From a virus: a DNA stretch of 15,349 nucleotides. The DNA lies in the UHGV virus genome UHGV-2196677; one strand, 5' to 3'. Every line of letters begins with the position of its first letter. Position 1 is the first letter of the stretch. This document shows, in pieces, positions 353 to 430 of this stretch. Under the pieces are notes generated by a model. It ran no database searches, had not been told where the DNA came from, and saw nothing but the letters and a program-made list of their open reading frames with translations. The position numbers and the translations under genes are program-made.

Positions 353-430
353 GCGCACACAATACAGCAAAAAAAGTGAGAAGTTAAGTATTGACATGTG
401 CGCACACATGATTTTAATCTGTGCGCACAG
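353..430 (+). promoter_or_regulatory. sigma70-like promoter overlapped by palindromic operators
   Basis: TTGACA at 391-396 and TTTAAT at 413-418 (16-nt spacer). The perfect 10-bp palindrome TGTGCGCACA occurs twice, at 397-406 (in the spacer) and 420-429 (over the predicted start site), 23 bp centre to centre. A half-site GCGCACA lies at 353-359. Confidence 0.5.

What the first reader, a model, noticed from the sequence alone, without database searches (positions are those of the whole stretch)
353..430. Twin perfect palindromic operators overlapping the replication-operon promoter
TGTGCGCACA occurs twice, 23 bp apart. One copy sits in the spacer between TTGACA and TTTAAT, the other over the predicted transcription start. 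A half-site GCGCACA is at 353-359, and a related TGTGCGCCACA at 87-97 lies beyond the regulator gene. This is a classic layout for a dimeric repressor controlling replication or induction of a mobile element. The divergent 65-aa RHH-like gene is the obvious candidate repressor.
Basis: seen in the sequence. Interest (0 to 1): 0.45.

Follow-up and report, generated by a model that had tools for sequence, protein, structure and literature searches.

The report
Repressor operators of a satellite-like island
The repeated palindrome is real and is one of three matched binding sites laid over two back-to-back promoters of a phage-satellite-like island in E. coli; comparative evidence points to the small divergent YlcI/DUF3950 protein, probably an Arc/Mnt-like ribbon-helix-helix repressor, as the binder that keeps the island's replication operon off, which would be the first function proposed for this protein family.

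Summary
TGTGCGCACA occurs at 397-406 and 420-429. A 9/10 copy at 350-359 is a third site, not a half-site. 98 related loci from Enterobacterales and Orbales share the layout: ylcI, site 1, an A-rich tract, an invariant TTGAC -35 abutting site 2, then site 3 exactly 23 bp on, overlapping the -10 and the start. The six central bases of the sites (frame GTG-N6-CAC) differ between loci but match within each locus. They covary with YlcI residues 11-14, and not with the rest of YlcI, the Icd-like protein, AlpA, the primase or neighbouring DNA. Those residues align with the DNA-reading beta-strand residues of Arc and Mnt. All 20 occurrences of the twin motif in 2.9 million viral contigs lie next to a ylcI gene. 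The true origin (TAACCCGCA iterons) lies elsewhere, at 3433-3557. The -10 is TAATCT at 415-420, with an 18-bp spacer. There are three operators. The 86-96 motif is unrelated. This is a classical repressor-operator switch run by an uncharacterised family, in Gram-negative PICI-like islands whose repressor was reported as unclear. All evidence is computational.

The parts
125..322 (-). ylcI-like gene, 65 aa (YlcI/YnfO family, DUF3950). It is the proposed ribbon-helix-helix repressor. Residues 11-14 (AKKN) are the proposed specificity determinants, and R16 is invariant.
   Evidence: Pfam PF13132, E 1.6e-6. NCBIfam NF041551, E 3.5e-16. AF2 model: residues 1-18 extended, helices 19-35 and 41-64. 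Covariation with the operators.
349..360 (.). Operator site 1 (ATGGGCGCACAC; the 10-mer TGGGCGCACA at 350-359 is a 9/10 match). It overlaps the -10 and the predicted start of the leftward ylcI promoter.
   Evidence: It lies 47 bp upstream of site 2, as in 34 of 62 non-redundant loci; the distance is 46 bp in 9 more. The copy is perfect in Klebsiella, Rahnella and Erwinia relatives. Its core tracks the cores of sites 2 and 3 (r=0.67).
359..364 (-). Predicted -10 of the leftward (ylcI) promoter: TATTGT on the minus strand. A weak -35, TTAACT, lies at 382-387 on the minus strand.
   Evidence: The conserved ATACA block after site 1 reads as TATnGT on the other strand, at 0.72-0.78 conservation. 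Promoter function is inferred. The -35 is poor in most relatives.
391..396 (+). -35 hexamer TTGACA of the rightward promoter (P_R).
   Evidence: TTGA is present in 36 of 36 distinct related intergenic regions and the following C in 35 of 36.
396..407 (.). Operator site 2 (ATGTGCGCACAC; perfect 10-mer at 397-406). It abuts the -35 and fills the promoter spacer.
   Evidence: The position is identical in all loci that have the conserved geometry.
415..420 (+). -10 hexamer TAATCT of P_R, with an 18-bp spacer. The predicted transcription start is about 427 +/- 2, inside site 3.
   Evidence: Across 36 distinct intergenic regions the family consensus at +24..+29 from the -35 is T 0.92, A 1.00, n, n, n, T 1.00. 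The simple scanner did not call it. The start site is inferred.
419..430 (.). Operator site 3 (CTGTGCGCACAG; perfect 10-mer at 420-429). It overlaps the last 2 bp of the -10 and the predicted start.
   Evidence: It lies 23 bp from site 2 in 61 of 62 non-redundant loci. Sites 2 and 3 match at a mean of 10.5 of 12 positions within a locus.
458..519 (+). Conserved structured leader of the P_R transcript. Hairpin 1 spans 458-491. The conserved single-stranded CTAACCAC is at 492-499. Hairpin 2 spans 503-519, just before the ribosome-binding site of the Icd-like gene.
   Evidence: RNAalifold on 47 loci: 11 of 15 pairs show compensatory double changes. There is no Rfam match. Its function is unknown.
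528..3409 (+). The operon under P_R: Icd-like gene (528-731), orf85 (724-981), DUF4222 (984-1286) and the DUF927 primase/helicase (1283-3409).
   Evidence: The ORFs overlap or abut. Pfam and NCBIfam matches. RefSeq annotation.
3433..3557 (.). Probable replication origin. It has four direct TAACCCGCA iterons (3496, 3507, 3528, 3549) and two inverted copies (3433, 3442) flanking an AT-rich stretch. It is listed here because it excludes the palindromes as the origin.
   Evidence: Its position 3' of the primase gene matches the PICI origin layout described in PMC6092414.

Best explanation
The 205-bp region between ylcI and the Icd-like gene is a compact bidirectional switch.

A strong sigma-70 promoter, P_R, has its -35 (TTGACA) at 391-396 and its -10 (TAATCT) at 415-420. 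It drives a structured leader and then the Icd-like, orf85, DUF4222 and DUF927 primase/helicase genes. These form the replication module of a Gram-negative PICI-like island integrated at tRNA-Gly.

The divergent 65-aa YlcI/DUF3950 protein most likely folds as an Arc/Mnt-like ribbon-helix-helix dimer. One dimer would bind each 12-bp site of the form GTG-N6-CAC. The paired N-terminal beta-strands would lie in the major groove. The invariant R16 would read the conserved outer G/C bases, and the variable residues 12 and 14 (with 11) would read the central bases.

Site 2 fills the -35/-10 spacer. Site 3 covers the -10 and the start. Occupancy of either should exclude RNA polymerase and silence the replication operon. 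Site 1 is usually the most degenerate copy. It sits in mirror-image position over the -10 and start of the ylcI promoter, so it should give negative autoregulation.

Different islands carry different core and residue combinations, so co-resident islands would be hetero-immune.

What is shown: the sequence anatomy, its conservation, the covariation, and the exclusive linkage of the motif to ylcI. What is inferred: binding, repression, the fold, the transcription start sites and the autoregulation. What lifts repression is unknown. My best guess is a helper-phage or Bro-zone antirepressor, or AlpA-driven convergent read-through.
For: Chance is excluded: 5 of 2000 shuffles reach the observation.

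Architecture. 98 ylcI loci were collected. 83 of them share the layout. Among the 62 non-redundant loci, site 2 to site 3 is 23 bp in 61, and site 1 to site 2 is 46-47 bp in 43.

Promoter. The -35 is invariant, and the T, A and T of the -10 are 0.92-1.00 conserved.

Sites are local. 191 sites lie inside the 200-bp intergenic regions, against 20 in 562 kb of flanks.

Reverse test. All 20 IMG/VR contigs carrying the twin motif are contigs already found through YlcI.

Covariation.
- Per bit of variability, YlcI columns 1-14 carry about twice the mutual information with the operator of the remaining columns. The top columns are 11, 5, 12 and 14.
- Partial Mantel, operator against residues 11-14 given the rest of the protein: r=0.48 (0 of 2000 permutations). 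The reverse comparison gives -0.05.
- Pairs with identical residues 11-14 but under 75% identity elsewhere differ at 2.1 of 16 core positions. Pairs with different residues 11-14 but at least 80% identity elsewhere differ at 7.2.
- Linkage control. The ylcI 5'UTR lies physically between the arm codons and the sites and correlates at only r=0.21. Synonymous sites of codons 15-32 correlate at 0.08. Operator against arm given the UTR is 0.54, with 0 of 1000 permutations.

Fold.
- AF2 gives an extended N-terminus and two helices.
- hhalign aligns YlcI 10-27 with Arc 7-24 and YlcI 14-25 with the Mnt strand. That equates K12, N14 and R16 with Arc Q9, N11 and R13, the base-contacting residues by established knowledge of Arc and Mnt.
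- Pfam gives weak hits to the RHH part of HicB in 8 of 37 members.

Island context: Int, AlpA, AntA, Bro-N, primase, SSB and PerC.
Against: There are no experimental data of any kind.

The RHH assignment is not statistically secure.
- hhalign gives E=0.014 and E=0.12, with probabilities below 5%.
- Foldseek finds nothing in the PDB or BFVD.
- No PDB sequence hit was found.
- The monomer model leaves residues 1-18 unstructured, at pLDDT 52-62.
- A dimer could not be modelled.

The 35-bp spacer between sites 1 and 2 also correlates with operator type (r=0.60). Inheritance of the region as a block therefore contributes to the signal. Even so, operator against arm given that spacer stays at 0.37, with 0 of 1000 permutations.

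The 'code' is degenerate: AKKN, AKKY, TKKG and DKKN all go with GTGCGCAC.

The leftward -35 is weak in most loci.

A 23-bp spacing is not an integral number of helical turns, so cooperativity is unexplained.

PHROGs labels the Icd-like family 'transcriptional repressor', so a second regulator may act here.
Confidence: 0.75

Rival explanations
1. The sites are operators, but a different protein binds them. Candidates are the Icd-like product of the first rightward gene (acting like Cro), AlpA, the primase, or a helper-phage or host factor. On this view YlcI does something else.
For: PHROGs annotates the Icd-like family (phrog_6196, phrog_1743) as 'transcriptional repressor'. An Icd-like gene is the first rightward gene in most loci. 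The YlcI fold assignment is weak.
Against: Icd-like divergence does not track the operator cores: r=0.05, not significant. In the same 39 loci the YlcI arm gives r=0.42, with 0 of 1000 permutations. Of 16 pairs with Icd-like proteins under 12% different, 8 have different operators. One example is L072 against L073: 97% identical Icd-like proteins, TTTAAA against CCCCAA cores, and arms TYKG against ATKG. AlpA is 32-100% identical among loci with the identical TGTGCGCACA operator, yet 80-82% identical in loci with other operators. The primase is 30-100% identical among same-operator loci. A host factor cannot explain different cores within one genome, as in L003/L006 and L028/L033.
Confidence: 0.12
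2. ylcI plus the small gene downstream of it (65 aa, partly outside the window) is a type II toxin-antitoxin pair. On this view the palindromes serve only for its autoregulation, not for control of the replication operon.
For: RHH antitoxins dominate the structural hits: TacA1, MazE6, Rv0298 and CopA_SO. There is a weak Pfam hit to HicB-like antitoxin. A 65-aa ORF follows ylcI on the same strand in this island.
Against: The downstream gene is not conserved. Homologues of it occur in 14 of 99 loci. 25 of 83 distinct contexts have no same-strand ORF of at least 40 aa within 200 bp, and the others are heterogeneous. The two best-conserved sites sit in the core of the divergent promoter P_R, not in the ylcI promoter.
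Confidence: 0.05
3. The repeats are iterons of the island's replication origin, bound by the initiator.
For: They are repeated at a regular spacing of about 23 bp next to an A-rich tract, upstream of the replication genes.
Against: A typical origin lies elsewhere, between the primase and SSB genes. It has four direct and two inverted TAACCCGCA iterons around an AT-rich core at 3433-3557. That is the position reported for PICI origins (PMC6092414). The palindromes sit exactly on the -35, -10 and start positions. They do not covary with the primase.
Confidence: 0.03
4. The repeat is a chance event, or it acts only as a hairpin or terminator (395-410 plus the T-rich tail) with no protein-binding role.
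For: The scanner flags 395-410 as terminator-like.
Against: 5 of 2000 shuffles reach the observation. The geometry is conserved across 83 loci from many genera, while most cores there are not palindromic enough to form hairpins: only 12 of 42 site-2 10-mers are perfect palindromes. The site also lies upstream of the predicted start.
Confidence: 0.02

Closest known systems
Phage P22 immI region: the RHH repressors Mnt and Arc controlling P_ant and P_mnt (from my own knowledge; the Arc and Mnt sequences were verified against PDB 1arq and 1mnt)
   Same: A small RHH repressor is transcribed divergently from the promoter it represses. Symmetric operators overlap the core promoter and start of back-to-back promoters. 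The strand motif N-x-R-x-P-x-E is shared: Arc FNLRWPRE, Mnt FNFRMPME, YlcI KNIRFPHE. Specificity resides in the strand residues equivalent to Arc Q9/N11 and Mnt H6/N8, which correspond to YlcI positions 12 and 14.
   Different: Sequence similarity is not significant (hhalign E 0.014 and 0.12). Here there are three separate 12-bp sites at 47 and 23 bp, not one 17-21-bp operator bound by a tetramer. The target is a replication operon of an island rather than an antirepressor gene. YlcI has a long, charged C-terminal helix.
Stl/Rpr master repressors of SaPIs and Gram-positive PICIs (PMC6092414)
   Same: A divergent regulatory gene faces the operon that carries the replication module of a phage satellite. 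It is expected to hold the island quiescent until a helper acts.
   Different: Stl/Rpr are larger helix-turn-helix proteins with no relation to DUF3950. [quoted passage not shown] Whether YlcI is relieved by a helper-phage protein is untested.
CopG of plasmid pMV158 and omega of pSM19035: RHH repressors of replication and copy-number operons (from my own knowledge)
   Same: A protein of about 45-70 aa with an RHH fold represses the promoter of a replication-initiator operon by binding symmetric or repeated elements in the core promoter.
   Different: CopG is co-transcribed with the rep gene it controls and binds one 13-bp element. Omega binds arrays of heptads. Neither shows the divergent three-site layout or the family-wide diversification of specificity seen here.
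Phage lambda O_R (O_R1-3 between P_RM and P_R)
   Same: A tripartite operator lies between divergent promoters. Two sites shut the lytic or replicative promoter, and one sits over the repressor's own promoter. Related elements show hetero-immune diversification.
   Different: Lambda uses helix-turn-helix CI and Cro proteins on 17-bp sites with cooperative binding. No Cro-like second binder is supported here.
P1 immI (c4 RNA - icd - ant) and the P4 CI RNA immunity system (PMC10111431; from my own knowledge)
   Same: An Icd-like gene is the first gene after a promoter and a structured leader. The setting is a P4- or PICI-like satellite.
   Different: No C4 or isrK Rfam match was found in the window or in 17 relatives. 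Control here appears to be by a protein and its operators, not, or not only, by an antisense RNA.

Membership tests
YlcI/YnfO family (Pfam DUF3950 PF13132; NCBIfam NF041551) | A profile match above the curated cut-off. | tested here: met
   PF13132 scores 28.3 bits against a cut-off of 25. NF041551 scores 59 bits against a cut-off of 30. phrog_949 matches at E 9e-28, annotated as unknown function. E. coli K-12 YlcI shares the motifs NIRFPxxxI and NFSAWVIEAC.
Ribbon-helix-helix (Arc/MetJ/CopG) superfamily | Beta-alpha-alpha topology: a short N-terminal strand followed by two helices. | tested here: met
   AF2 model: residues 1-18 extended, helices 19-35 and 41-64, mean pLDDT 76.5. The strand itself is not formed in the monomer model.
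Ribbon-helix-helix (Arc/MetJ/CopG) superfamily | Significant structural or profile similarity to known RHH proteins. | tested here: inconclusive
Ribbon-helix-helix (Arc/MetJ/CopG) superfamily | An obligate dimer whose paired strands insert into the major groove, with alternate strand residues reading the bases. | tested here: inconclusive
   Indirect support only. The hydrophobic/polar alternation K12-K13-N14-I15-R16-F17 is in register with Arc Q9-R13. Operator cores covary with positions 11-14.
Sigma-70 promoter (P_R) | -35 and -10 hexamers at 16-18 bp spacing, conserved in relatives. | tested here: met
   TTGAC is present in 35-36 of 36 regions. The hexamer T/A/nnn/T is 0.92-1.00 conserved after an 18-bp spacer. 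Promoter activity is not testable here.
Gram-negative PICI-type satellite (PMC6092414, PMC10111431) | An ordered layout: integrase plus AlpA, a Bro zone, a primase/SSB replication zone with the origin 3' of the primase, an accessory zone, about 10-20 kb in size, integrated at a specific site. | tested here: met
   The roughly 19-kb island sits next to tRNA-Gly. It carries Int (Arm-DNA-bind_3), AlpA (PF05930), AntA, Bro-N, the DUF927 primase, SSB, ProQ, PerC and cargo genes. Origin iterons lie 3' of the primase gene.
Gram-negative PICI-type satellite (PMC6092414, PMC10111431) | Induction, packaging and transfer by a helper phage. | not testable with these tools
   No packaging-redirection or capsid gene was recognised in the window.
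Type II toxin-antitoxin module (RHH antitoxin) | A conserved cognate toxin gene co-transcribed with the antitoxin. | tested here: not met
   The downstream gene is absent or unrelated in most loci.
C4 / P4-CI / isrK immunity RNA (Rfam) | A covariance-model match in the leader. | tested here: not met
   No match at E<=1 in the window. No match at gathering score in 17 relatives, where only the int-alpA RNA and a tRNA were found.

The most novel reading that the evidence does not exclude
YlcI/DUF3950 may be the hitherto missing master repressor of a large class of Gram-negative PICI-like satellites. Two to four residues of its beta-ribbon would set a readable, swappable operator code that makes co-resident islands hetero-immune. 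Repression would be lifted by a helper-phage or Bro-zone antirepressor. The covarying leader RNA just downstream would be a second, undescribed layer of control over the Icd-like and replication genes.
Probability: 0.35. Interest if true: 0.7.

Novelty: new member of a known kind. Interest (0 to 1): 0.5.

Why it matters
Three reasons.

First, it gives a testable function to a widespread family annotated only as DUF3950 or 'YlcI/YnfO family protein'. E. coli K-12 has two members. I found no functional study of the family.

[quoted passage not shown] This module is a concrete candidate for many of them. About a quarter of complete E. coli genomes match part of the region. 69 genomes carry most of this intergenic region.

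Third, the natural series of matched operator and residue variants is a ready-made data set on ribbon-helix-helix DNA recognition. It could also supply orthogonal repressor-operator pairs.

If it is wrong, what remains is an ordinary conserved promoter region.

Tried and rejected
- Rfam on the whole window at E<=1, and on 17 relatives at gathering score: nothing at the promoter or leader.
- Phage-database DNA search: no match.
- PDB profile search with the YlcI alignment: no hit.
- Foldseek against the PDB and BFVD: no usable hit.
- A second database search with the alignment returned only DUF3950 members in the listed top 120, so it gave no bridge to named RHH families.
- The simple promoter scanner missed P_R, because TTTAAT lacks A at position 2 and TAATCT scores only 3 of 6. 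The promoter was established from family conservation instead.
- Origin iterons: rejected, because the real iterons are at 3433-3557.
- Icd-like protein, AlpA and the primase as specificity partners: rejected.
- Toxin-antitoxin reading: rejected.
- The 86-96 TGTGCGCCACA as a fourth operator: rejected. It occurs only in near-identical copies of this island.
- Simple physical linkage as the cause of the covariation: tested and found insufficient.
- E. coli K-12 ylcI: examined and found in a different context, next to cos and nohD of prophage DLP12. I did not see this operator layout upstream of it by eye.

Full report
OBSERVATION

TTGACA is at 391-396. TGTGCGCACA is at 397-406 and again at 420-429, 23 bp start to start. 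The copies extend to CATGTGCGCACACATG (395-410) and CTGTGCGCACAG (419-430). The 'half-site' at 353-359 is part of a 9/10 copy, TGGGCGCACA at 350-359.

The window holds 15 perfect 10-bp palindromes against 16.5 expected, so palindromes as such are not enriched. Only this one recurs. Only 5 of 2000 dinucleotide-preserving shuffles contain any identical 10-bp palindrome twice within 60 bp. There is no further copy with up to 1 mismatch in the window or in 35 kb of genomic context.

CONTEXT

The window is 99.9-100% identical to chromosomal DNA of several E. coli strains. In strain FDAARGOS_1298 it belongs to an island of about 19 kb next to tRNA-Gly. The island's gene order is as follows:
- a P4-type integrase;
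- a hypothetical gene;
- AlpA (PF05930);
- AntA and Bro-N;
- two leftward small genes: a 65-aa hypothetical, and the 65-aa YlcI/YnfO protein at window 125-322;
- the intergenic region under study;
- rightward: an Icd-like gene (528-731), orf85, DUF4222, a DUF927 primase/helicase (1283-3409), SSB, ProQ/FinO and a frameshifted PerC;
- a four-gene cargo block with no recognisable domains.

This is the zone order described for Gram-negative PICIs in PMC10111431: integration, Bro, replication, then a late or accessory zone.

The intergenic region between the primase and SSB genes carries four direct and two inverted TAACCCGCA iterons around an AT-rich core. That is where PICI origins lie (PMC6092414). 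The palindromes are therefore not the origin.

COMPARATIVE ANATOMY

Using an alignment of 37 YlcI homologues, I fetched 45 loci from one-genome-per-species contigs and 54 from IMG/VR. The genera include Escherichia, Klebsiella, Enterobacter, Serratia, Rahnella, Pectobacterium, Brenneria, Pantoea, Erwinia, Xenorhabdus, Proteus, Morganella, Arsenophonus, Gilliamella and Orbus.

All share one layout:
- the ylcI start codon;
- about 17-27 bp further on, site 1, followed by (C)(A/T)ATACA;
- an A-rich tract;
- TTGAC(A/G), with site 2 directly abutting it;
- site 3, 23 bp after site 2.

Among 62 non-redundant loci, the distance from site 2 to site 3 is 23 bp in 61. The distance from site 1 to site 2 is 46-47 bp in 43. 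It is about 70 bp in a subgroup that carries an extra fourth site.

The sites fit the frame GTG-N6-CAC. The outer bases are conserved across the family. The central six differ between loci but agree among the sites of one locus. Sites 2 and 3 match at a mean of 10.5 of 12 positions; site 1 matches them at 9.4-9.7. Examples:
- TGTGCGCACA three times, all perfect, in Klebsiella, Rahnella and Erwinia;
- TGTTTAAACA in Xenorhabdus, Pantoea, Morganella and Pectobacterium;
- GTGTATRTGCAC in Serratia, Brenneria and Pectobacterium;
- TGTRCGGACA in Gilliamella and Orbus.

PROMOTERS

In 36 distinct intergenic regions TTGA is invariant and the following C is present in 35. Eighteen bp after the hexamer comes T (0.92), A (1.00), n, n, n, T (1.00). 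In the window this is TAATCT at 415-420.

The predicted start, about 427, lies inside site 3.

On the other strand, the conserved ATACA block after site 1 reads TATnGT (TATTGT at 364-359). This is a -10 whose last two bases overlap site 1, in exact mirror image of the -10 and site 3 arrangement. Its -35 is weak in most loci.

Immediately downstream of site 3 is a conserved leader with two hairpins. Eleven of its 15 predicted pairs show compensatory double changes in 47 loci. That supports rightward transcription from this point. No Rfam family matches the leader.

WHO BINDS

(a) Linkage. Sites within 1 mismatch of each locus's own site 2 number 191 inside the 200-bp intergenic regions, against 20 in 562 kb of flanking DNA. 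An exact-pattern scan of all 2.9 million IMG/VR contigs for the twin motif returned 20 contigs. Every one had already been found through YlcI.

(b) Covariation.
- Per bit of variability, YlcI columns 1-14 carry about twice the mutual information with operator positions of the rest of the protein. The top columns are 11, 5, 12 and 14.
- Operator-core distance correlates with distance at residues 11-14 after controlling for the rest of the protein: partial Mantel r=0.48, with 0 of 2000 permutations. The converse is -0.05.
- Pairs with identical residues 11-14 but under 75% identity elsewhere differ at 2.1 of 16 core positions. Pairs with at least 80% identity elsewhere but different residues 11-14 differ at 7.2, as much as unrelated pairs at 6.9.

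(c) Linkage control. The arm codons are adjacent to the intergenic region, so co-inheritance is a real confounder. However:
- the ylcI 5'UTR, which lies between the arm codons and the sites, correlates at only r=0.21;
- the spacer between sites 2 and 3 correlates at 0.14;
- the leader correlates at 0.17;
- synonymous sites of codons 15-32 correlate at 0.08;
- operator against arm, given the UTR, is 0.54, with 0 of 1000 permutations.
The spacer between sites 1 and 2 does correlate (r=0.60), so block inheritance contributes. Even so, operator against arm given that spacer remains 0.37, with 0 of 1000 permutations.

(d) Rival binders.
- The first rightward gene is Icd-like in most loci, and PHROGs labels that family 'transcriptional repressor'. 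Its divergence does not track the operators: r=0.05, not significant, in the same 39 loci where the arm gives r=0.42. Near-identical Icd-like proteins sit behind different operators. L072 and L073 are 97% identical in Icd-like protein, yet have TTTAAA against CCCCAA cores and YlcI arms TYKG against ATKG.
- AlpA and the primase range from about 30% to 100% identity among loci with the identical operator.
- The gene downstream of ylcI is not conserved. This argues against a toxin-antitoxin reading.

FOLD

AlphaFold2 with the family alignment gives an extended N-terminus (residues 1-18) and helices at 19-35 and 41-64, with mean pLDDT 76.5. This is the ribbon-helix-helix topology for a monomer taken out of its dimer.

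I verified my recollected Arc and Mnt sequences against 1arq and 1mnt. hhalign then aligned YlcI 10-27 with Arc 7-24 (E 0.014) and YlcI 14-25 with the Mnt strand (E 0.12). Neither is significant, but the register is the same in both. KNIRFPHE aligns with FNLRWPRE and FNFRMPME.

This equates YlcI K12, N14 and R16 with Arc Q9, N11 and R13, the base-contacting residues by established knowledge of Arc and Mnt. Positions 12 and 14 are the variable, operator-covarying ones. R16 is invariant, as are the outer GTG and CAC bases.

I therefore treat 'works like an Arc/Mnt-type RHH repressor' as well supported. Formal membership of the superfamily remains inconclusive.

MECHANISM PROPOSED

One YlcI dimer binds per 12-bp site. 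Sites 2 and 3 occlude the spacer, the -10 and the start of P_R, and so silence the Icd-like-to-primase operon. Site 1 is usually the weakest copy and autoregulates ylcI.

The diversification of cores and arm residues gives hetero-immunity. In line with that, two islands in one genome carry different types, in Serratia sp. Ag1 and in Xenorhabdus kozodoii.

The inducing signal is unknown. Candidates are an antirepressor from the helper phage or from the island's own AntA/Bro genes, or AlpA-activated transcription running convergently into ylcI.

COMPARISON AND NOVELTY

The layout is closest to P22 immI (Mnt and Arc over P_ant and P_mnt). In logic it resembles lambda O_R and the Stl/Rpr repressors of Gram-positive PICIs.

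I found no paper assigning a function to YlcI, YnfO or DUF3950. A 2026 survey lists it in cf-PICIs only as a 'prophage-associated protein' (PMC13612085). Fillol-Salom et al. state that a global repressor in Gram-negative PICIs is unclear and that AlpA is an activator (PMC6092414).

This is therefore a new member of a well-known kind of switch. Its value is specific rather than conceptual: a function for an uncharacterised family, and a candidate repressor for these islands.

VERDICT

Confidence in the mechanism is 0.75. Interest is 0.5.

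Noticed in passing
window 5646-13307 (+): Four co-oriented, abutting ORFs of 843, 686, 925 and 104 aa lie in the accessory zone of the island. None has a match in Pfam, NCBIfam or PADLOC, and RefSeq annotates them as hypothetical. Given their position in a satellite-like island, they are a candidate for an undescribed cargo or anti-phage system.
   Followed up: partly
window 458-519 (+): There is a conserved structured leader RNA between operator site 3 and the Icd-like start codon. Hairpin 1 spans 458-491, the invariant-like CUAACCAC is at 492-499, and hairpin 2 spans 503-519, next to the ribosome-binding site. 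Eleven of 15 pairs show compensatory changes across 47 loci. No Rfam family matches. In E. coli this leader is more widely conserved than the operators: most of the 363 genomes matched only query positions from about 132 to 205.
   Followed up: partly
window 3433-3557: Probable origin of replication. Four direct TAACCCGCA iterons at 11- and 21-bp spacing and two inverted copies flank an AT-rich stretch, between the DUF927 primase/helicase and SSB genes.
   Followed up: partly
L061 about 3871-3926; L062 intergenic region: There are length variants of the operator array in close E. coli relatives. L061 has an extra 23-bp unit, giving three sites to the right of the -35. L062 appears to have lost one unit, fusing sites 2 and 3 and removing the -10. 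This looks like unequal recombination between the 23-bp-spaced repeats.
   Followed up: partly
L011, L017, L022, L027, L037 (intergenic regions): Islands of the TGTTTAAACA type carry a fourth site 24 bp upstream of site 2, just left of the -35. This moves site 1 to about 70 bp from site 2.
   Followed up: no
L101 4252-4446 (E. coli K-12 MG1655 ylcI, prophage DLP12): The family's namesake, K-12 YlcI, keeps the NIRFP...NFSAWVIEAC core. It sits next to the cos site and nohD at the end of a lambdoid prophage. I did not see the three-site GTG-N6-CAC layout upstream of it by eye. The phage-borne branch of the family may therefore have another target.
   Followed up: partly
L004, L011, L033, L078 (between int and alpA): The Rfam int-alpA RNA motif (RF02996) is present in several related islands. 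The corresponding region of this island lies outside the window and was not checked.
   Followed up: no
window 1-67 (-), and upstream in L001 16870-17067: The 65-aa hypothetical gene downstream of ylcI ends with the same residues as YlcI (...AKEQE). It is found only in the E. coli subgroup, in 14 of 99 loci. It may be a partial duplication. The motif TGTGCGCCACA at 86-96 lies between the two genes and can itself form a small hairpin.
   Followed up: partly
window 4985-5210 (+): A PerC-family regulator gene is annotated as frameshifted in the RefSeq record. PerC-like genes are typical PICI cargo (PMC11773190).
   Followed up: no
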